This document shows positions 5,283-60,574 of a DNA stretch of 64,000 nt, in pieces. This stretch comes from a virus. Numbering within the stretch: the first letter of the stretch is position 1; every line of letters starts with the position of its first letter. The stretch lies in IMG/VR virus record IMGVR_UViG_3300045988_122521; one strand, given 5' to 3'. A model generated the notes under the pieces. The model was not told the origin of the DNA and ran no database searches. It was given only the letters and a program-made list of their open reading frames with translations. The position numbers and the translations under genes are program-made.

Positions 5283-5358
5283 TGGCGGAAACGGCAGGAC
5301 TCGAACCTGCGGCCCTCTGATTAACAATCAGATGCTCCTCCAACTGAGCTACGCTTCC
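5283..5358 (-). tRNA. tRNA-Asn: tRNA-Asn (anticodon GTT), CCA encoded
   Basis: Hand fold: acceptor GGAAGCG/CGTTTCC, D arm GCTC-AGTTGGAG-GAGC, anticodon arm TCTGA-TTGTTAA-TCAGA, T arm GCAGG-TTCGAGT-CCTGC. 76 nt. Confidence 0.85.
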
Positions 5359-5531
5359 GTAGGGGGCTTTCGCCCCCGTATAAAGTCCCTTTCGGGCGAA
5401 AACGATCCACCGTTTTCATCTGAATGTCTCCCCTGGGTCACATTGTGGAGAGGTGCGGGGAGTTCTGTTTTATGGGCGCACTTTCCGGTCAGCTGCTGTG
5501 GTTCTCGACCTCGGCAGCGTCTCTCCGCTTT

Positions 5532-5606
5532 TGGCACAGACTCAGGGATTCGAACCCCATCCTGCGGTTTTGGAGACCGCCGTTCTCCCGATCAAACTCA
5601 GTCCGC
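5532..5606 (-). tRNA. tRNA-Trp: tRNA-Trp (anticodon CCA), CCA encoded
   Basis: Hand fold: anticodon arm GCGGT-CTCCAAA-ACCGC, T loop TTCGAAT. The acceptor has two G-U pairs. 75 nt. Confidence 0.7.
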
Positions 5607-54381: not shown

Positions 54382-55176
54382 ATGAATGACCTATTGACCA
54401 TCAGCAACGGCCAGCCCACCGCCAGCAGCCGCGACATTGCGGGGCACTTCGGCAAGGGGCACAACCACGTCTTGCGCGACATTGACGCGCTGAAAGGAGA
54501 TGTGTCCAATTTTGGACAGATGTTCTTCGACACAGAAATCCCCGACAGCTACGGCAGGCCACAGCGAGCCTACCTTATGAACCGCGACGGCTTCACGCTC
54601 CTTGCCATGGGTTTCACTGGCAAGGAGGCGTTGGCGTGGAAGATGAAGTACATCAACGCCTTTAATGCCATGGAGCAGGAATTGCGCTCCCAGCAGCAGG
54701 GCTTGACCGAAGCGGATTTCTCCGCCCTGTCCTACGAGGCCCGCGCCATCATCAAGATGGAGCTTCAGCAGAAACAGCAGGCGAAACAGATCGCCGAACT
54801 GACCACCCAGCAGCAGGAGACGCGCACGATGGTGAACCAGACACTTTCTGCCATTACCCGCCCCTCTACTTCTGACGCAGAGGATTGGAAAGAGGACATC
54901 AACCACACCATCCGTCAGATGTGCGAGGAATACGGTCTCAACTACCACACCACCATCGGCGAGATGTACGCCGAATTGGAAAAGCTGGGCAGTGTCAACC
55001 TCAGCGTCCGGCAGAAAAATCTGCAAGCGCGTATGCGCCGCGGCGGTGCCACCGTGGCCGAGTGCCGCCGTATAAGCAAACTCCACGTCATCTCACAGGA
55101 AAAGAAACTGCGCTGGTTCTACGAAGGTATCGTCCGAGCCTACCGCGCCCAGCTTGCCGCCTCCCGTATGCACTGA
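54382..55176 (+). CDS. Rha-family phage regulatory protein
   Basis: The N-terminal TASSRDIAGHFGKGHNHVLRDIDAL matches the Phage_pRha pattern. Confidence 0.75.
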   Translation: MNDLLTISNGQPTASSRDIAGHFGKGHNHVLRDIDALKGDVSNFGQMFFDTEIPDSYGRPQRAYLMNRDGFTLLAMGFTGKEALAWKMKYINAFNAMEQELRSQQQGLTEADFSALSYEARAIIKMELQQKQQAKQIAELTTQQQETRTMVNQTLSAITRPSTSDAEDWKEDINHTIRQMCEEYGLNYHTTIGEMYAELEKLGSVNLSVRQKNLQARMRRGGATVAECRRISKLHVISQEKKLRWFYEGIVRAYRAQLAASRMH

Positions 55177-55303
55177 ACTCTTTGTGTCCGCTTTTCGGAC
55201 GGCTGCAACCAAACCGACGAAATTCGTCGCGCCGCCGCCTGATTACACCCTGTATACCCCCATTCACCCCATACACCATTTATACAACAGGAGGAAATTT
55301 ATC

Positions 55304-55522
55304 ATGACAGTTCTTGAAGCGTGCGCCATGCTGGAGCTTGGCGACGGCATCAAACCCAACATCGAACTTACCTTCGGCTCCAGTGGAGTTCCCTTTAACC
55401 CCAAAAACAGCCTTGAGATGATGGCCTACGGCGACTTCCTCATCGAAACCTGCCACGTCTGGGAGGGCGGCGTCAACCTCGTCCTCAAGCAGCAGTTCTG
55501 CAAGAAGAACTGGAACGCATAA
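55304..55522 (+). CDS. Hypothetical protein
   Basis: Start MTVLEACAMLELGDG with an AGGAGG RBS. 72 aa. Confidence 0.45.
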   Translation: MTVLEACAMLELGDGIKPNIELTFGSSGVPFNPKNSLEMMAYGDFLIETCHVWEGGVNLVLKQQFCKKNWNA

Positions 55523-55534
55523 GGGGGGGGCAGC

Positions 55535-55699
55535 ATGATTCCAGCAACCATCCAGATCGGTGATCCCGTCACCCAGTACATCGAAGCCACCAACCGCAAG
55601 GCCACCGGCAAGGTGATCTACATTCATCCTCTGCGCCGCTACTACATGGCGGAATTTTCCTTCCGTTTCGGCAAGTTCCGCGAGTGCTTTATGCTCTGA
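55535..55699 (+). CDS. Small hypothetical protein
   Basis: 54 aa, MIPATIQIGDPVTQYIEATNRKATGKVIYIHPLRRYYMAEFSF... Found by hand translation. Confidence 0.35.
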   Translation: MIPATIQIGDPVTQYIEATNRKATGKVIYIHPLRRYYMAEFSFRFGKFRECFML

Positions 55700-55704
55700 A
55701 AAAT

Positions 55705-55750
55705 TTTTCAAAAAAATCCCCCGAAAGGTGTTTACACGGTATGGTATCAT
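55705..55750 (+). promoter_or_regulatory. Composite promoter-like motif, copy 3 (heads the RNA island)
   Basis: TTTTTCAAAAAAATCCCCCGAAAGGTGTTTACACGGTATGGTATCAT. Confidence 0.45.
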
Positions 55751-55889
55751 CCTTTTGCCAAAGGGAGACAGGCTCTTTGACTCTCCTTCGAGTGTAAGAT
55801 AAGCTCCGACCCGTAAGCAGGAGCTGCGCCGGTCAACGTGGCGGTAGCCGCGCCCAGCGTCCCCAGTGCGATTCTGGCAGGGGCCATCC

Positions 55890-55962
55890 GCAGATGTAGC
55901 TCAGTCGGTAGAGCACCGCGCCAGGAGGTATGTCGTTGGTTCGAGTCCAACCGTCTGCACCA
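55890..55962 (+). ncRNA. tRNA-like element 1 (canonical acceptor, D and T arms, CCA; aberrant 15-nt core)
   Basis: GCAGATG-TA-GCTC-AGTCGGTA-GAGC-AC[CGCGCCAGGAGGTAT]GTC-GTTGG-TTCGAGT-CCAAC-CGTCTGC-A-CCA. No 5-bp/7-nt anticodon arm is possible. Confidence 0.5.
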
Positions 55963-56123
55963 ATTCTACGTGGACACCGCGCAAGCGGGATAGCCGTATG
56001 GGCGATGCGAAGTCCTGAAGTAAGCCCCTCAAGCCTCGATGTTGTAATTGCGCCTGTGATCTGCTGGCAAAAGCGAGGCACGGAAAAGATCTGGCGGCTC
56101 GGAAAGACGAGCACCCCCCTCAT

Positions 56124-56205
56124 GCAGACGTAGCTCAGTCGGTAGAGCACGCAGCGTTCCCGGCGCTGATTCCCGTCGTTGGTTCAAGTCCAACCGTCTG
56201 CACCA
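56124..56205 (+). ncRNA. tRNA-like element 2 (same scaffold as element 1; 24-nt core)
   Basis: The core GCAGCGTTCCCGGCGCTGATTCCC contains stem CAGCG/CGCTG with loop TTCCCGG (CCC in the anticodon position). It is out of canonical register: 2 extra nt on the 5' side and a 9-nt 3' segment. Confidence 0.5.
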
Positions 56206-56530
56206 TAGGCGTGACCTCTTGCCTCGCAGCCGCACGGAGCGTAAGCCTGCGAAAGTGGTCTTTCCTGTGCGCTGTACGAAAGCGGCAGGACGAAGAAATT
56301 TATGTATTGGCTGGCACCGGCTTTGTAAAGATGAACGGATGCGACCGACGTACCGGCGCAGGGCTGAAAAGTTCCGTGGTTGGTTCGGGTGCCGGCGTGT
56401 GCGGCGAAAATCCGAGGCGAAACCTGTAGATGTGGAAGCGGCGTGGTGGCGGCCGTCTTTGGACAAGGCCGCCGTGTAGGTCAGTAGCCATCCGCACCGG
56501 CACCCCGCCAACTGTGTCCCCGCAAAATAC
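56206..56530 (+). ncRNA. Candidate structured RNA spacer (GNRA-rich)
   Basis: No credible ORF. Many short helices capped by GAAA/GTAA loops (56251, 56278, 56406, 56419). Perfect hairpin GGCGGCC..GGCCGCC. Confidence 0.3.
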
Positions 56531-56607
56531 GCAGCGTTAGTGTTTAACGGTCAGCACATCGGTCTTCCAAACCGAGAGTGGCGGTTCGAATCCGCTACGC
56601 TGCTCCA
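56531..56607 (+). tRNA. tRNA-Gly: tRNA-Gly (anticodon TCC), CCA encoded
   Basis: Acceptor GCAGCGT/ACGCTGC, anticodon arm TCGGT-CTTCCAA-ACCGA, T arm GGCGG-TTCGAAT-CCGCT, discriminator T. Confidence 0.85.
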
Positions 56608-56778
56608 TGCCCGCCTGGTGGGCGACTTCCCCCATCAGGAATGAAACCTCCGCATCTGGCAGCGGTGTCGCCGGGTGGAATCAGCCGGTAGCAAGATTCG
56701 GGCGTGACAGCGAACGAAGGAACGCCCCATCGGCAGCCGCACCGGAGAGCTATGCGGCAAATCTAAAGAAAGGGACGG

Positions 56779-56787
56779 TGCTATAAT
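56779..56787 (+). promoter_or_regulatory. Extended -10 promoter (TGcTATAAT)
   Basis: TG at 56779-56780 and TATAAT at 56782-56787. No good -35. Confidence 0.4.
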
Positions 56788-56792
56788 CGTGT

Positions 56793-57028
56793 TTTTTATC
56801 AATTACCTGTTCTGGGTATCCGGCGCGGTGCCGTTCCTTGCGATCCCCGCCTGCGCCCCCGCCGCAGGCGCCCGCGAAATCCCTGTGCGTGTGCGCCGAC
56901 GCACGAAGATCAGGCGGACGGGCAGATGGTTCACAGCCGGATTCACTTAGTGTCCACACTCAGCGGGGTATACAAAGTCGAAACGAAAAACGGAGAGGCA
57001 GCGCCCTCTGCGCCCCCTCTCCGTTTTA
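56793..57028 (+). ncRNA. Candidate ~235-nt non-coding transcript ending in a strong terminator
   Basis: Bounded by the extended -10 promoter and the hairpin ACGGAGAGG..CCTCTCCGT+TTTT (56990-57028). Only low-complexity ORFs cross it. Confidence 0.3.
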
Positions 57029-57031
57029 TAC

Positions 57032-57162
57032 GCGGAAGCGCCGTCAGGGGCAAACGACATTTTTTCTACCGCATACAAATCGCACACATGACCTCCCTCA
57101 TCCTTTCTGTTCGTTCGTTGGTGTTGTCGTTTCTGCGGGTTCGAATCCCGCCTTCCGCTCCA
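57032..57162 (+). ncRNA. tRNA-like element 3: tRNA-Gly-type acceptor/T arm enclosing a ~90-nt insert
   Basis: 5' GCGGAAG pairs with 3' CTTCCGC-T-CCA. T arm GCGGG-TTCGAAT-CCCGC. An 8-bp helix AAACGACA/TGTCGTTT closes the insert. Confidence 0.45.
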
Positions 57163-57305
57163 CGGTCCATCATGGACCTCCTTGAAAAGCTGTGGCCGTA
57201 AGAAACAGCTCTGGGTGTTGTTCCCCCAGCTCCTGCTGGAATGCAGGCAGGCCATTTCACCCCCATCTGGGCGGCGAGGTTTGGACCGACCCGCCGCCCA
57301 CCTCT

Positions 57306-57381
57306 GGGATGTTAGCTCAGCAGGCAGAGCAGACGGCTCATAACCGTCCGGTCACGGGTTCGATCCCCCTACATCCCACCA
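57306..57381 (+). tRNA. tRNA-Met: tRNA-Met or tRNA-Ile2 (anticodon CAT), CCA encoded
   Basis: Acceptor GGGATGT/ACATCCC, anticodon arm GACGG-CTCATAA-CCGTC. One mismatch in the T stem. Confidence 0.8.
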
Positions 57382-57446
57382 GCCGCAAGGCGAAAAAACA
57401 AAGTCAGCGAAATCCCCATTTTTTTACAGAAAGGAGGACCTATATC

Positions 57447-57719
57447 ATGACCAAGAGCGAATTCATCGCCGCTGTGGCGGCGGGCGCCAACGTTTCCAAG
57501 GCAGAAGCCGACCGCGTGATCGCCGCCGCCGCCAACACCCTCACCGGTGCCATGTGCAGCGGCGACAACGTGAGTATCCCCGGCTTCGGCATCTTCACCA
57601 GCAGGATGCGCGACGCGCACCCCGGCAAAAATCCCGCTACCGGCGAGACCATCACCATCCCCGCTAAGCGCGTGGCGGTGTTCAAGCCCGCTAAGCAGCT
57701 GAAAGACGCTCTGAACTAA
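57447..57719 (+). CDS. hup: HU-family DNA-binding protein
   Basis: 90 aa, MTKSEFIAAVA...GFGIFTSRMRDAHPGKNPATGETITIPAKRVAVFKPAKQLKDAL. AAAGGAGG RBS. Confidence 0.9.
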   Translation: MTKSEFIAAVAAGANVSKAEADRVIAAAANTLTGAMCSGDNVSIPGFGIFTSRMRDAHPGKNPATGETITIPAKRVAVFKPAKQLKDALN

Positions 57720-57749
57720 TGCGCGCTTGCGCAGAATATCCCCCATCAT

Positions 57750-57783
57750 GAGCCGGACGGCCAAGCGCCCTCCGGCTCGTTTT
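57750..57783 (+). terminator. Rho-independent terminator after hup
   Basis: GAGCCGGA..TCCGGCTC followed by GTTTT. Confidence 0.6.
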
Positions 57784-57847
57784 GGAAGCGAAATTTACGT
57801 TTCGTTTTGTATATAAGTCAGCAAATAACCAAACACATTCAGCCAAA

Positions 57848-57869
57848 TTTTCGCAAGTGTTTGCGAAAA
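57848..57869. promoter_or_regulatory. Palindromic operator-like site upstream of the cysteine desulfurase gene
   Basis: TTTTCGCAA-gtgt-TTGCGAAAA in an AT-rich promoter region. Confidence 0.4.
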
Positions 57870-57926
57870 TATCCCAACAACCTAAGACACCACTTATGAA
57901 ACTTCTTATAAAAAAGGAGAATCCCC

Positions 57927-59000
57927 ATGATCTACTTCGACAACGCCGCCACCACACCGCCCGTTCCCGGCGCATTTGGTGCCGCCACACAGTGCGCCAT
58001 CTTCGGCAACCCTTCCAGCGCCCACGCCGTTGGGCGCGAGGCTAAGGCCGAACTGGAATCTTGCCGTGCCATCATCGCCGACAAACTGAACTGCGAACCG
58101 GACGAGGTGTATTTCACCTCCGGTGCCACCGAAGCTTGCAACTGGATGGTCAGATGCCTCCGGCTGGAGACCGACGCCATCAACTACAACGACACCGTTC
58201 ACCACGCCGTTAGCGAGGCTGCCCGGTCATACCTCGTGCCCATCGCTACCCACGGCAAGCCCTCCGCCATCCTATCCCTCGTCAACAACGAAACCGGCCA
58301 GATAAGCAATGTGGACGCTTTCTGCCGCAAGAATCGCCCCCACCGCATCGCCCTTGACGCCACCGCCGCCGTAGGACACATCCCCGTGGACTTCAAGGCG
58401 CTGGGTGCGGACTACATGGCGTTCGGAGGCCACAAGTTCGGATCCCTCAAGGGCATCGGTGCACTCATCGTCCGCCGCGGCTGTCCCATCGCCCCCATGA
58501 TCTTCGGCGGCGCACAGGAGCGCGGTATGCGCGGCGGCACGGTCTCCGTCCCCCTTGTCAGCTCTATGGCCGCCGCCCTCACCTGGCGCTCCCTCCACAT
58601 GGCAGAAAACGAGAAAGCTATCCGCGCCGTCGCTCAGGAGCTTATCATTTCCCTTGGTTGCCACCATGTGGATTTCGACATCAATCTGCCCGGCGGCAAA
58701 AGCAGCAAGGATTGCGCTCCCCACATCCTCTCCATCCGCTTCCCCGGCGTCTACGGCGCGTCCCTCGCCGCCGCCCTCAGCGTAAACGGCATCATGGTGT
58801 CTACCGGCTCCGCCTGTTCCTCCGGCGACAACGCCGCCTCCGCCAACCTCATGGCCAGCGGCCTTACCGAGCAGGAGGCACTGGAGACCATCCGCTTCTC
58901 CTTCGACTGGTACAACACAACCGCCGAGGCCGCCGAAGCCGCCCGCACCATCTCCAGGCTTCTCCCTTCGCTCCGCCGCGGCAAAAGCGGCAAAAATTGA
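57927..59000 (+). CDS. Cysteine desulfurase (NifS/IscS-like, class V aminotransferase), short form
   Basis: 357 aa. PLP lysine context GGHKFGSLKG. Active-site loop STGSACSSG. Confidence 0.8.
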   Translation: MIYFDNAATTPPVPGAFGAATQCAIFGNPSSAHAVGREAKAELESCRAIIADKLNCEPDEVYFTSGATEACNWMVRCLRLETDAINYNDTVHHAVSEAARSYLVPIATHGKPSAILSLVNNETGQISNVDAFCRKNRPHRIALDATAAVGHIPVDFKALGADYMAFGGHKFGSLKGIGALIVRRGCPIAPMIFGGAQERGMRGGTVSVPLVSSMAAALTWRSLHMAENEKAIRAVAQELIISLGCHHVDFDINLPGGKSSKDCAPHILSIRFPGVYGASLAAALSVNGIMVSTGSACSSGDNAASANLMASGLTEQEALETIRFSFDWYNTTAEAAEAARTISRLLPSLRRGKSGKN

Positions 59001-59082
59001 AAAAAATTCCCCGCGCCGGTTGCAAAATTGCCCCCTGTCGGTAGACTATACTATGATAAATCTTTAGAAGGAGGACATCCAC

Positions 59083-59361
59083 ATGTCTATGAATTCCGCA
59101 AAGCTGAAGCAGTACCTCTCCCTCAAGGACACCGCCGCCCTGGCCAAGGGCTTCGCCGCCTCCGTTTCCGCCGCCGATCCTCAGAGCGACAGCGATCACG
59201 CCTCCGTGGCGCTGGAACTGCCCCACCCCGCCGCGCTGGACGGTACGGCGAAATCGGTATTTGCCGCGCTGTGTTCCTTCGCGGACAGCATCTACATGGC
59301 CGCCGGCGAAACCACCATCCGCTTCACCTTCGCAGTGGAGAATATGCAAAAGGAGGAATAA
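59083..59361 (+). CDS. Hypothetical protein
   Basis: 92 aa with an AAGGAGG RBS. Confidence 0.45.
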   Translation: MSMNSAKLKQYLSLKDTAALAKGFAASVSAADPQSDSDHASVALELPHPAALDGTAKSVFAALCSFADSIYMAAGETTIRFTFAVENMQKEE

Positions 59362-59365
59362 CGCC

Positions 59366-59539
59366 ATGCTCGTCACCAACGTCGTCAAACGCGAATATCC
59401 CCTCACCGTCCGCCGCAAGCGGGACGGCGAGGTGTTTACCATGCTCATCGAAGCCGAGTCCGAAGCCGCCGCCCGTCTCCTCCTCCCCGACACCGTGGAA
59501 CTGGTGGAGACGCCCAAGCGCGGCAAGGAGGGGGTCTGA
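59366..59539 (+). CDS. Small hypothetical protein
   Basis: Start MLVTNVVKREYPL. 57 aa. Confidence 0.4.
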   Translation: MLVTNVVKREYPLTVRRKRDGEVFTMLIEAESEAAARLLLPDTVELVETPKRGKEGV

Positions 59540-59542
59540 TAT

Positions 59543-60574
59543 ATGCCCCGCACATCTGCCGCCGAGCGCAGACTCTGCGCCGCCACCGACGCATACCTCA
59601 AAAACTGCGCCGCCACCGACTTTTCCCCCCGCACCCTCAAAAACTACACCTACACGCTGGAGGACTTCATGAATTTCTTCATCGAGTCCAAGGAGAATTA
59701 CGCCGACCCCAACTACGCTACCATCCTTCTGTGGCGAAACTCCCTCATTGAGCGGCAGTGCTCTCCTTCCACCGTCCGGCAGTATCTCATCCGCCTCCAC
59801 GCCTTTTTCGAGTTCGCCTGCGACCCTCAATGCGGCGGCTGGTATCAGACGAACCCTGTCTCCAAGCGCCTGCTGCCCAACACGCGGCGGGAGGAACTGC
59901 GTCCCTATGACCCGCTCCTCACCGACCAACAGGTCATGAAGCTATGGCGAAATGACCGTCCTCCGCGTGCCAAGGCCGCCACTTACCCCCGCAACTACGC
60001 CATCGTCATCCTTCTCCTCACCACGGAACTGCGCAACGCGGAGCTGCTGCACCTCACCCCCGCCGACCTCTACTGGGACGATGGCGAGATTTTCGTAGAA
60101 TACGGCAAGGGCAACAAGTTCCGCCGTGTGGACTTCCCCGACATTGCCCAGTCTGCCGTCCGCATCTACCTTGCCAGCGGCATCCGCCCCCGCGGCCTGC
60201 CGGATACCGCGCCCCTGTTCGGCACTACCAGCGAAAAGGGCGTTTTCGGTGCCAGAAATCGGGACTGTGGATGGTCCGCCGGTTCTCCCACATGGCTTTC
60301 CGCGCTGGTGGAGCGCCACGTCAAGGCCGTCACCGGCGTCCCCAATATCCGCACCCACGACCTGCGCCACGTCGGCGCACGTCTCGACCTCAATGGCGGT
60401 ATGGCGCAGGAGGAACTGCAGGCAAAACTGGGTCACGCCTCCCCCGCCATCACCCAGGTCTATTCCGGAAAGCTCATGGGCAAAGCGGGTAAGCGCTCCG
60501 CCATTCTGGTACTGGAAGCCCGAGAACGGCAGGCGGAGATCAACGAAGGCCTCTTATCCGCCTCTTCACAATAA
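59543..60574 (+). CDS. Tyrosine recombinase, XerC/D-like
   Basis: 343 aa. Catalytic contexts ELRNAEL (R), THDLRH (HxxR), LGHAS (H), QVYSG (Y). Confidence 0.85.
   Translation: MPRTSAAERRLCAATDAYLKNCAATDFSPRTLKNYTYTLEDFMNFFIESKENYADPNYATILLWRNSLIERQCSPSTVRQYLIRLHAFFEFACDPQCGGWYQTNPVSKRLLPNTRREELRPYDPLLTDQQVMKLWRNDRPPRAKAATYPRNYAIVILLLTTELRNAELLHLTPADLYWDDGEIFVEYGKGNKFRRVDFPDIAQSAVRIYLASGIRPRGLPDTAPLFGTTSEKGVFGARNRDCGWSAGSPTWLSALVERHVKAVTGVPNIRTHDLRHVGARLDLNGGMAQEELQAKLGHASPAITQVYSGKLMGKAGKRSAILVLEARERQAEINEGLLSASSQ

What the first reader, a model, noticed from the sequence alone, without database searches (positions are those of the whole stretch)
55890..56205. Twin tRNA scaffolds with swapped cores
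Elements 55890-55962 (73 nt) and 56124-56205 (82 nt) share a near-identical 27-nt 5' part (GCAGAYGTAGCTCAGTCGGTAGAGCAC). They also share a 31-nt 3' part (GTCGTTGGTTCRAGTCCAACCGTCTGCACCA).

The sequence where the anticodon arm should sit is unrelated between them: 15 nt (CGCGCCAGGAGGTAT) against 24 nt (GCAGCGTTCCCGGCGCTGATTCCC).

- Element 1 cannot form a 5-bp stem with a 7-nt loop.
- Element 2 forms CAGCG/CGCTG with loop TTCCCGG, but out of register.

Conserved ends with a replaced core look like selection on the scaffold rather than simple decay. Possible roles are decoys for anticodon nucleases, processing handles, or carriers of a functional insert.
Basis: seen in the sequence. Interest (0 to 1): 0.7.

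Follow-up and report, generated by a model that had tools for sequence, protein, structure and literature searches.

The report
Anticodon-less tRNA look-alikes in gut phage
Two tRNA-shaped RNA genes in a human-gut phage keep every part of a tRNA except a usable anticodon arm; they belong to a large family, for which I found no specific description, that sits at the head of conserved non-coding RNAs and most likely serves as a processing and stability handle, not as a decoder.

Summary
Elements 55890-55962 and 56124-56205 share 27 nt at the 5' end and 31 nt at the 3' end, with one mismatch in each part. Their cores of 15 and 24 nt are unrelated.

Both are tRNA-shaped: a 7-bp acceptor stem, D and T arms with all the elbow nucleotides, and an encoded CCA. 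Neither has a canonical anticodon arm.

They are not recent wrecks. The same scaffold occurs in at least 120 viral and at least 120 metagenome contigs, mostly from human gut; both scans were capped. I found about 139 distinct sequences and at least 10 different cores. The T stem and both core hairpins show compensatory changes.

ARAGORN rejects 61 of 91 variants. It gives the rest more than 12 different "anticodons", all on one acceptor stem.

The elements punctuate a 1.7-kb non-coding array. Conserved structured RNAs (S1, S2) always begin directly after a tRNA or tRNA-like CCA. At one slot, canonical tRNA-Thr and the look-alikes are interchangeable. Leaders have U at -1 and are A/U-rich, as expected for RNase P substrates.

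Best reading: non-decoding tRNA mimics kept as processing and stability handles. The core is exchangeable and polymorphic among close relatives. Decoy or specificity roles remain possible. Function is untested.

The parts
55700..55889 (+). Leader of the non-coding array (S0), between a 54-aa ORF that ends at 55699 and element 1
   Evidence: No plausible ORF. It is 98% identical in L014. No sigma-70-type promoter consensus was found.
55890..55962 (+). Element 1 (el1): a 73-nt tRNA look-alike. Acceptor GCAGAUG/CGUCUGC, A73, CCA, normal D and T arms. The anticodon arm is replaced by a short hairpin: A26-U, C-G, C-G, G.A, C-G, with the 5-nt loop GCCAG.
   Evidence: Rfam tRNA 50.7 bits with the arm skipped. 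ARAGORN does not call it. There are 47 unique variants, and the variation fits the hairpin model.
55963..56123 (+). S1: conserved spacer RNA that starts directly after the CCA of el1 and ends 2 nt before el2
   Evidence: Found in 31 loci. Its internal motif is preceded by a tRNA or tRNA-like CCA in 40 of 40 cases.
56124..56205 (+). Element 2 (el2): an 82-nt tRNA look-alike on the same scaffold. Hairpin CAGCG/CGCUG with loop UUCCCGG, 2 extra nt 5' of it, and a 9-nt variable region.
   Evidence: Rfam 52.3 bits. ARAGORN calls it 'Gly(ccc)'. The stem covaries to CAUCG/CGAUG in L218, and the loop is invariant.
56206..56530 (+). S2: a structured RNA of about 310 nt that always follows a tRNA or tRNA-like CCA plus one U
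   Evidence: The first 165 nt are 92-100% identical in 77 contigs. RNAalifold predicts 81 pairs, 7 of them with compensatory changes. No Rfam match. Preceded by CCA in 80 of 80 cases.
56531..56607 (+). Canonical tRNA-Gly(UCC)
   Evidence: ARAGORN. Rfam 43.5 bits.
56608..57031 (+). S3: spacer RNA, partly conserved
   Evidence: S3a is found in 26 loci.
57032..57162 (+). TL3: a 131-nt tRNA look-alike. Acceptor GCGGAAG/CUUCCGC, U73, CCA, T arm, and an 8-bp 'anticodon' stem that encloses about 65 nt.
   Evidence: Custom acceptor/T-arm scan. RNAfold gives a cloverleaf-like fold. Relatives of 148 nt and 195 nt occur in other loci.
57306..57381 (+). Canonical tRNA-Met(CAU), the last unit of the array; followed by a ribosome-binding site and an HU-like gene (57447-57719)
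   Evidence: ARAGORN. Rfam 58.6 bits. HU assignment.

Best explanation
el1 and el2 are non-decoding tRNA mimics, probably derived from a tRNA-Arg(CCG)-like gene. They are transcribed as part of a long non-coding tRNA-island transcript.

Each folds into the tRNA L-shape. Acceptor stem, T arm, D arm and all elbow contacts are intact. The host tRNA-processing machinery therefore treats them as pre-tRNAs:
- RNase P cuts at G+1. This frees the 3' end of the RNA upstream and leaves a base-paired, protected 5' end.
- The CCA end marks the exact 5' boundary of the next structured RNA (S1, S2). That RNA is either released there or stays fused as a tRNA-capped RNA.

The anticodon arm is not needed for any of this. 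It survives only as a short inert hairpin that keeps the fold and keeps the RNA out of translation. It is free to be exchanged by recombination between family members through the shared scaffold.

**Shown:** the fold, family-wide conservation with covariation, absence of a usable anticodon arm, exact abutment to the conserved RNAs, interchangeability with a real tRNA, and leader features.

**Inferred:** transcription, RNase P cleavage, the fate of the CCA junction, and lack of aminoacylation.
For: - **tRNA shape.** Rfam scores are 50.7 and 52.3 bits. U8, A14, G15, G18, G19, A21, G46, C48, T54-T55-C56, A58 and G53-C61 can all be read directly.
- **Selection on that shape.** T-stem pair 50:64 is CG in 59 and UA in 28 sequences. 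Pair 51:63 is UA in 56, AU in 21 and GC in 5. D-loop changes are confined to the usual variable positions.
- **No decoding.** ARAGORN does not of 91 variants. The rest get more than 12 different anticodons on one acceptor stem and one discriminator. The arm is a 5-nt loop, or lacks U33, or is a long stem.
- **Punctuation.** S2 starts 1 nt after a CCA in 80 of 80 cases. S1 follows a CCA in 40 of 40 cases.
- **Interchangeable with a real tRNA.** The slot before S1 holds canonical tRNA-Thr(CGU) in 20 of 41 cases and look-alikes in the rest.
- **RNase P-type leader.** Position -1 is U in 51 of 63 unique leaders and never a purine. Positions -2 to -4 read A/U/A in a 58% GC genome. A hairpin lies just upstream in 46 of 63.
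- **Co-transcription is plausible.** All credible neighbouring genes are co-directional with the elements.
- **Core hairpins are maintained.** In el1 the C-G pair becomes A-U in L027, and there is a C-to-U wobble change. In el2 the G-C pair becomes U-A in L218.
- **Precedent.** Phage ROOL and GOLLD RNAs lie near tRNA islands, and tRNAs occur in the GOLLD linker (PMC12286853). Theta ribozymes abut phage tRNA 3' ends (PMC10879173).
Against: - No expression or end-mapping data were available, so no processing step is shown.
- An encoded CCA followed by a stable structured RNA is not a classic RNase Z substrate (established knowledge). How, or whether, the junction is cut is therefore unknown.
- In the smaller phages S2 is not always followed by a tRNA. 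Only its 5' boundary is consistently tRNA-defined.
- A pure handle does not explain two things. The el2 loop UUCCCGG is invariant while its stem and flanks vary. The body is far more polymorphic than its 98-99% identical flanks.
- el1 in this window has C at -1, not U.
Confidence: 0.5

Rival explanations
1. Specificity cassette. The tRNA scaffold displays an exchangeable RNA core, or simply a free acceptor end, that acts in phage-host or phage-phage conflict. It could be a decoy for host factors or toxins that act on the tRNA acceptor end or elbow. It could also be an RNase P-processed regulatory RNA in the manner of P1 C4 or P4 CI. In this reading the hypervariable body reflects diversifying selection.
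For: - The body is replaced while the flanks stay nearly identical. Window and MT835520 share a 99% identical S2 but have different bodies. Window and L014 differ only in a patch running from the D loop to the T loop.
- Three haplotypes occur among phages that share an identical integrase.
- At least 5 different bodies occur in one and the same flank context.
- The el2 loop is invariant.
- In the 40-kb phages the elements sit in a leader region after an XRE-type regulator and before early or packaging genes. This resembles the position of the P4 and P1 immunity RNAs (own knowledge).
Against: - No complementary target was found. Duplex energies of both cores against +/-1.5 kb are no better than shuffled cores.
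- Polymorphisms in S2 do not track body type.
- The el1 loop varies at 3 of its 5 positions, which argues against sequence-specific recognition.
- There is no Rfam C4 match or any other Rfam match.
- The commonest type has no anticodon mimic, so it cannot be a decoy for an anticodon nuclease.
Confidence: 0.2
2. Functionless relics. These are decayed copies of phage tRNA genes that persist by hitch-hiking in a recombination-prone tRNA island, and gene conversion keeps their ends alike.
For: - The scaffold looks like a former tRNA-Arg(CCG). L290 is nearly canonical and L048:224 is intermediate.
- Annotation tools disagree or fail.
- Cores and T-arm versions reassort, and [el2+S2] is dispensable in close relatives.
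Against: - The family is widespread: at least 120 viral and at least 120 metagenome contigs, about 139 distinct sequences.
- Every stem and every tertiary nucleotide is kept. The T stem and the core hairpins show compensatory changes.
- The leader is conserved, with U at -1.
- Abutment to S1 and S2 is invariant.
- Neutral decay would not spare the D-loop and T-loop contacts while erasing only the anticodon arm in at least 10 independent ways.
Confidence: 0.12
3. Real decoders with unusual geometry. For example, el2 is a tRNA reading GGG, and the 77-nt relatives read AUU or AUG.
For: - el2 has a 5-bp stem and a 7-nt loop with U33, CCC and a purine at position 37. ARAGORN calls it Gly(ccc).
- Its loop is invariant.
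Against: - The same acceptor stem and A73 accompany more than 12 different 'anticodons'.
- el2 lacks the bacterial GlyRS determinants U73 and G3:C70 (read from the sequence; the identity rules are established knowledge).
- el2 has two extra nucleotides at the D/anticodon hinge and a 9-nt variable region.
- el1 has a 5-nt loop.
- The 77-nt type lacks U33.
- GGG makes up only 14% of Gly codons, and a canonical tRNA-Gly(UCC) sits 325 nt downstream.
Confidence: 0.05

Closest known systems
tRNA punctuation and tRNA-like processing elements (mitochondrial tRNA punctuation; MALAT1 mascRNA; murine gammaherpesvirus-68 tRNA-miRNA TMERs)
   Same: A tRNA-shaped module that is not used for decoding is placed at the boundary of another RNA, so that tRNA-processing enzymes define that RNA's ends. 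The acceptor/T-arm half is conserved and the anticodon arm is degenerate.
   Different: Those examples are eukaryotic or from eukaryotic viruses and rely on RNase P plus RNase Z. Here the setting is a bacteriophage tRNA island, CCA is encoded, and processing is untested. The comparison rests on my own knowledge.
Phage tRNA islands with large structured RNAs (ROOL, GOLLD) and the stable 'species 1/2' RNAs of the T4 tRNA cluster
   Same: Structured non-coding RNAs of unknown function are embedded among phage tRNA genes. tRNAs are sometimes covalently linked within GOLLD (PMC12286853).
   Different: S1 and S2 match no Rfam family, including ROOL and GOLLD. The adjacent tRNAs here are mostly non-decoding look-alikes.
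Theta (HDV-like) ribozymes next to gut-phage tRNAs
   Same: In gut Caudoviricetes, an RNA element starts exactly at a phage tRNA 3' end and is proposed to mature it (PMC10879173).
   Different: An HDV-like descriptor finds no more matches after these CCA ends than in shuffled sequence: 7 versus 11 of 179. Theta-associated tRNAs mostly lack an encoded CCA (4.5% have one), whereas these all encode it.
RNase P-processed phage regulatory RNAs (P1/P7 C4 antisense RNA, P4 CI RNA)
   Same: Small RNAs cut out of an operon leader by RNase P, with loops that determine specificity and differ between heteroimmune phages (own knowledge; both are listed as RNase P substrates in PMC5499578).
   Different: There is no Rfam C4 match. 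No complementary target was found. Those RNAs are not full cloverleaves.
Engineered tRNA scaffolds (Ponchon-Dardel design)
   Same: The anticodon stem-loop is replaced by a foreign RNA while the rest of the tRNA gives processing and nuclease resistance. TL3 (57032-57162) and its 148-nt relatives have exactly this layout.
   Different: That scaffold is man-made. A natural equivalent in phages has not, to my knowledge, been described.
Non-decoding bacterial tRNA mimics (Bacillus cereus tRNA-Other, YrlA Y RNAs, tmRNA)
   Same: tRNA-like folds used for something other than decoding.
   Different: YrlA and tmRNA were not detected by Rfam or ARAGORN. There is no G3:U70. tRNA-Other keeps a normal-length anticodon arm (own knowledge).

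Membership tests
Canonical decoding tRNA | 7-bp acceptor stem, D arm with G18G19, T arm with the T-Psi-C loop; passes the Rfam tRNA model | tested here: met
   Rfam 50.7 and 52.3 bits against a gathering score of 29. The nucleotides can be read.
Canonical decoding tRNA | 5-bp anticodon stem and 7-nt loop with U33 and a purine at 37, in register (one nt after the D stem, 4-5 nt or a long arm before the T stem) | tested here: not met
   In el1 the Rfam model skips the arm, and the best model is a 5-bp stem with a G.A pair and a 5-nt loop. In el2 the stem and loop are present, but with 2 extra nt 5' and a 9-nt variable region.
Canonical decoding tRNA | Acceptor and discriminator identity consistent with the anticodon | tested here: not met
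   One acceptor stem with A73 carries more than 12 different ARAGORN 'anticodons' or none. el2 'Gly' lacks U73 and G3:C70.
RNase P substrate / tRNA-like processing element | Acceptor plus T-arm coaxial stack of 12 bp with an intact elbow | tested here: met
RNase P substrate / tRNA-like processing element | Single-stranded leader with a pyrimidine (preferably U) at -1 | tested here: met
   U in 51 of 63 and C in 12 of 63 unique leaders; positions -2 to -4 are A/U-rich. In this window el1 has C at -1 and el2 has U.
RNase P substrate / tRNA-like processing element | Actual cleavage at G+1 and defined ends in vivo | not testable with these tools
   No RNA-seq or biochemistry is available.
tRNA pseudogene (recent decay) | Homologues with an intact arm, and lesions in these copies that are private and recent | tested here: not met
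   The el1 core is shared by 47 unique variants and the el2 core by about 14, both with compensatory changes. No canonical arm occurs on this scaffold within the phage family.
Theta/HDV-like ribozyme-tRNA pair | Nested double-pseudoknot HDV-like fold starting at the tRNA 3' end | tested here: not met
   Descriptor matches in 7 of 179 contexts against 11 of 179 shuffled. No Rfam HDV-type match.
P1 C4 / P4 CI type antisense immunity RNA | Loop complementary to a target in the same operon, co-varying with it | tested here: inconclusive
   No duplex is better than shuffled cores within +/-1.5 kb. No co-varying patch in S2. Short kissing contacts or distant targets cannot be excluded.
tmRNA / YrlA / ROOL / GOLLD | Match to the family model | tested here: not met
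   No match in 55600-57600 at E<=1 and none above gathering scores in the whole window. ARAGORN finds no tmRNA.

The most novel reading that the evidence does not exclude
The scaffold is a natural 'tRNA display' system. A constant tRNA body, recognised and stabilised by host tRNA enzymes, presents exchangeable RNA cores. These cores are under diversifying selection as anti-defence decoys or specificity determinants. The ultra-conserved S2 RNA that always starts one nucleotide after the CCA is a new cis-acting RNA, possibly a ribozyme, that matures or uses that tRNA end.
Probability: 0.15. Interest if true: 0.85.

Novelty: new variant of a known kind. Interest (0 to 1): 0.6.

Why it matters
If the reading is right, a large group of human-gut phages uses tRNA-shaped RNAs without anticodons as built-in processing and stability modules for a set of uncharacterised structured RNAs. 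That would be a bacterial-virus counterpart of tRNA punctuation and of the engineered tRNA scaffold.

It would also mean that many 'odd tRNAs' and 'tRNA pseudogenes' in phage annotation are a distinct functional class.

The locus supplies clean natural experiments: core swaps and module indels in near-identical genomes. It also supplies two new structured RNAs (S1, S2) whose ends are defined by tRNA mimics. This makes the long-standing question of why phage tRNA islands carry large non-coding RNAs directly testable.

Tried and rejected
- **Antisense pairing of the cores with nearby RNA.** RNAduplex against 55000-58000 gave el1 -29.8 kcal/mol (shuffled mean -27.9, sd 2.3) and el2 -33.0 kcal/mol (shuffled mean -35.8). 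There is no signal.
- **An SD-mimic idea for el1 (AGGAGGU).** I dropped it for three reasons. GAGGU is the 3' strand of a hairpin whose variation fits pairing. The ACCUCU motifs in the flanks remain when the core is of the el2 type. The 'ACCUCC' in TL3 is itself polymorphic.
- **Small ORFs across the array, such as 55930-56133 and 56211-56429.** These are rejected. S2 variants differ by 2-nt indels, and the reading frame from the el1 AUG is not conserved between the 72-nt and 73-nt types.
- **HDV-like/theta ribozyme after the CCA.** No enrichment over shuffled sequence.
- **Rfam matches for S1, S2 and S3.** None at E<=1.
- **Host or prophage origin of S2.** The 18-mer scan of 185,579 genomes gave only 6 chance hits with no further similarity.
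- **attP or tRNA-integration remnant.** Rejected because whole cloverleaves occur several times per genome, well inside the contigs.
- **T-box-like UGGN pairing with NCCA.** S2 is invariant although the upstream discriminator varies (A or G), and the UGGU lies inside a predicted helix.
- **Promoter scan.** No sigma-70 consensus in 55300-58000.
- **Host identity.** I could only infer a Gram-positive host from the lysis genes: Amidase_2 or CHAP with PG_binding_1, Holin_Dp1 and XkdX.

Full report
**1. The observation**

The sequence is as described. The repeat finder reports 55890-55916 versus 56124-56150 as 27 nt at 96% identity. It reports 55932-55962 versus 56175-56205 as 31 nt at 97% identity. 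Between the shared parts lie 15 nt (CGCGCCAGGAGGTAT) and 24 nt (GCAGCGTTCCCGGCGCTGATTCCC) with no similarity.

Both elements pass the Rfam tRNA model, at 50.7 and 52.3 bits against a gathering score of 29. In element 1 (el1) the model skips the anticodon arm altogether. In element 2 (el2) it needs two inserted bases before the arm and a 9-nt variable region. ARAGORN misses el1 and calls el2 'tRNA-Gly(ccc)' with the anticodon at position 36. RNAfold draws a cloverleaf for both, with only a weak 3-4 bp arm in el1.

Everything else a tRNA needs can be read directly from the sequence:
- U8, A14, G15, G18, G19, A21
- G46 and C48 in an AUGUC variable loop
- T54-T55-C56, A58, and the G53-C61 pair
- a 7-bp acceptor stem, A73, and an encoded CCA

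**2. The setting**

The elements lie on the + strand in a stretch from 55700 to about 57446 that has no credible ORF. Its order is:
- leader S0
- el1
- S1 (161 nt)
- el2
- S2 (325 nt)
- tRNA-Gly(UCC)
- S3
- TL3, a 131-nt tRNA look-alike (57032-57162) whose 'anticodon' stem encloses about 65 nt
- a short spacer
- tRNA-Met(CAU)
- a ribosome-binding site and an HU-like gene

A Rha-family regulator lies upstream. A NifS/DndA-like cysteine desulfurase and a tyrosine integrase lie downstream.

The window is 99.99% identical to a 75.6-kb human-gut contig (L188). That contig's lysis genes (Amidase_2 or CHAP with PG_binding_1, Holin_Dp1, XkdX) point to a temperate phage of a Gram-positive host. The only GenBank phage records with related DNA are two unannotated faecal contigs, MT835520 and MT835513.

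**3. A large family, not a pair**

Three scans recovered relatives:

| Query | Collection | Result |
|---|---|---|
| 3' end of the scaffold | IMG/VR | 27 contigs |
| 18-mer from the start of S2 | IMG/VR | 77 contigs |

Together these give 91 + 48 distinct sequences. On one acceptor stem I found at least ten different bodies:
- the el1 type, 72-74 nt, with 47 unique variants
- the el2 type, 82-83 nt
- a 73-nt type with CCAC-GUAGA-GUGG
- 74-75-nt types with CCCC-GAAAU-GGGG
- a 77-nt type with a 5-bp stem and 7-nt loop but A or C at position 33 (loops CAAAUAA, CCAAUAA, CACAUAA)
- types of 80, 81, 82, 86, 91 and 93 nt with longer arms

ARAGORN does not recognise 61 of the 91. It gives the rest Gly, Cys, Ile, Met, Phe, Arg, Trp, Leu, Ser, Thr or Ala 'anticodons', or 2-4-nt ones, all on the same acceptor stem and discriminator. 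Real decoders do not look like this.

A few unrelated environmental tRNAs (Lys, Val, Phe) share the acceptor stem by chance. One near-canonical tRNA-Arg(CCG) (L290) and an intermediate (L048:224) suggest that the scaffold descends from a tRNA-Arg(CCG)-like gene.

**4. Selection on the shape**

Across the 91 sequences, T-stem pair 50:64 is C-G in 59 and U-A in 28. Pair 51:63 is U-A in 56, A-U in 21 and G-C in 5. Between 90% and 100% of cells are paired.

Within the el1 type the D loop has 15 versions, which differ only at the positions that vary in real tRNAs. The T loop has 6 versions and the T stem three covarying versions. The stems never break.

The invariance of the acceptor stem is partly due to how the sequences were collected, because the search patterns fixed it. 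In the S2-anchored set, which did not fix it, the same acceptor stem still carries at least 5 different bodies with different D and T arms.

**5. The cores are hairpins, not debris**

The variation in el1 fits a short arm that begins one base early: A26-U, C-G, C-G, G.A, C-G, closing a 5-nt loop.
- Changes fall in the loop (3 of its 5 positions), at the G.A site (G to A), or preserve pairing (C to U opposite G).
- L027 converts the closing C-G pair to A-U.
- L164 and L048 have perfect 5-bp stems in the same register, with 9-10-nt loops.

The el2 stem CAGCG/CGCUG becomes CAUCG/CGAUG in L218. Its loop UUCCCGG never changes, although the bases on both sides of the hairpin do.

The arm is therefore kept as a hairpin but cannot present an anticodon in register.

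**6. Punctuation**

S2 begins one base after a CCA in 80 of 80 occurrences. The element in front varies: el1 type, el2 type, a Trp-like tRNA, a 112-115-nt class-II-like element, and others. An internal S1 motif is preceded by a tRNA or tRNA-like CCA in 40 of 40 cases. In front of S1, ARAGORN finds a canonical tRNA-Thr(CGU) in 20 of 41 cases and look-alikes in the rest. A real tRNA and an anticodon-less mimic can therefore fill the same slot.

S2 is itself a real structured RNA:
- Its first 165 nt are 92-100% identical in 77 contigs, while its 3' half falls to about 70%.
- RNAalifold predicts 81 pairs, 7 with compensatory changes, including a long-range helix.
- Variants differ by 2-nt indels, so it is not coding.
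- It matches nothing in Rfam.

The leaders in front of the look-alikes have U at -1 in 51 of 63 unique cases and C in the rest. Positions -2 to -4 read A, U, A in a 58% GC genome. A stable hairpin lies just upstream in 46 of 63. These are the features known to favour bacterial RNase P (established knowledge). All credible neighbouring genes point the same way as the elements.

**7. Exchangeable bodies**

Four comparisons show that bodies and modules are swapped:
- MT835520 shares a 99% identical S2 and an identical last 32 nt of S1 with the window. Yet its slot 2 holds a 91-nt body with different D, anticodon and T arms, and its slot 1 holds tRNA-Thr.
- L014 and other close relatives (94-98% identical over aligned DNA, same integrase protein) differ from the window at slot 1 only in a patch from the D loop to the T loop. 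There a 77-nt allele replaces el1.
- Those relatives also lack [el2+S2] exactly, from the first base of el2 to the base before tRNA-Gly. Three haplotypes coexist.
- MT835513, an otherwise unrelated phage, carries el2 plus the first part of S2 as a unit.

Cores and T-stem versions also reassort. For example, the el2 core occurs with GCUGG/CCAGC in L263. The shared scaffold ends evidently act as recombination handles. Whether selection favours the diversity cannot be decided from these data.

**8. What it most likely does**

The common requirement across all members and slots is a tRNA-shaped RNA with an acceptor end, not an anticodon. The simplest mechanism is that the host tRNA-processing machinery uses these elements to define and protect the ends of the neighbouring structured RNAs. 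RNase P would cut at G+1. The CCA junction would serve as the 5' boundary of S1 or S2, or as a tRNA cap fused to it. The inert hairpin would keep the mimic out of translation. I give this reading 0.5.

It does not explain the invariant el2 loop or the excess polymorphism of the body. I therefore keep a specificity or decoy model at 0.2. Neutral relics get 0.12 and true decoding 0.05.

**9. Known relatives and novelty**

Conceptually the nearest known things are:
- tRNA punctuation and tRNA-like processing modules (mascRNA, MHV-68 TMERs)
- phage tRNA islands that carry ROOL or GOLLD (PMC12286853)
- theta ribozymes that abut gut-phage tRNA 3' ends (PMC10879173)
- RNase P-processed phage RNAs (C4, CI)
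- the engineered tRNA scaffold

None of these families includes the present elements. Rfam, ARAGORN and an HDV-like descriptor all give negative results. A 2023 catalogue of candidate structured RNAs in IMG/VR mentions tRNA-like candidates that only sometimes overlap ARAGORN Arg or Cys calls. These may include this family, but I could not check the sequences (PMC10690425). I found no specific description of the family in the literature searches.

I rate it a new variant of a known kind, with moderate to high interest. No function has been shown.

Noticed in passing
window 56206-56530: S2 is a structured RNA of about 310 nt with no Rfam match. Its first 165 nt are 92-100% identical in 77 viral contigs, while its 3' half diverges to about 70%. 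A long-range helix shows covariation. It always starts one nucleotide after a tRNA or tRNA-like CCA.
   Followed up: partly
window 55963-56123: S1 is a conserved 161-nt spacer RNA found in 31 loci. It is always preceded directly by a tRNA-Thr(CGU) or a look-alike CCA, and it ends 2 nt before the next look-alike.
   Followed up: partly
window 57032-57162: TL3 is a 131-nt cloverleaf-like element with a tRNA-Gly-like acceptor (GCGGAAG/CUUCCGC, U73, CCA), a T arm, a mini D hairpin and an 8-bp stem enclosing a pyrimidine-rich loop of about 65 nt. Relatives of 148 nt and 195 nt occur in about 25 other loci. The layout matches the engineered tRNA scaffold.
   Followed up: partly
window 56124-56529 versus L014, L186, L187, L189, L190: The module [el2+S2] is a clean presence/absence polymorphism among close relatives. 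Its breakpoints lie at the 5' ends of two tRNA or tRNA-like genes that both begin with GCAG.
   Followed up: yes
L003:4065-4147 and relatives: A second scaffold shows the same phenomenon. This 83-nt element has a tRNA-Thr-like acceptor (GGUAUCG/CGAUACC) and a long G+C-rich arm instead of an anticodon arm. It occupies the slot that holds tRNA-Thr(CGU) in other phages.
   Followed up: no
L099, L126, L134, L145 and others (81-nt type): One body type has lost both the D-loop G18G19 (D loop AACCAAAA) and the T-Psi-C sequence (T loop UGCAAGC). The two partners of the elbow contact have disappeared together.
   Followed up: no
window 56531-56607: The tRNA-Gly(UCC) has A3:U70 instead of the usual G3:C70 and an enlarged D loop. 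Rfam aligns only model positions 3-68.
   Followed up: no
window 57447-60574: Directly after the array come an HU/IHF-like gene, a NifS/DndA/IscS-like cysteine desulfurase and a tyrosine integrase. The desulfurase accompanies the array in 17 loci. A link to tRNA thiolation or DNA phosphorothioation is possible but untested.
   Followed up: partly
window 5283-5606 (- strand): A second small tRNA cluster (tRNA-Asn GUU and tRNA-Trp CCA) lies at the other end of the window. In other phages a relative of this tRNA-Trp, with an aberrant D arm, is the element directly in front of S2.
   Followed up: no
L093:11172-11908, L002:2740-3496: In the 30-45-kb relatives the look-alike sits in a non-coding leader of about 740 nt. 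The leader lies between an XRE-type HTH gene and ParB-methylase or terminase genes. It has a conserved 3' end (GGUAAAGUCUGCUAUGUAA...GGCUGGUAGCAAAA) just before the first gene.
   Followed up: no
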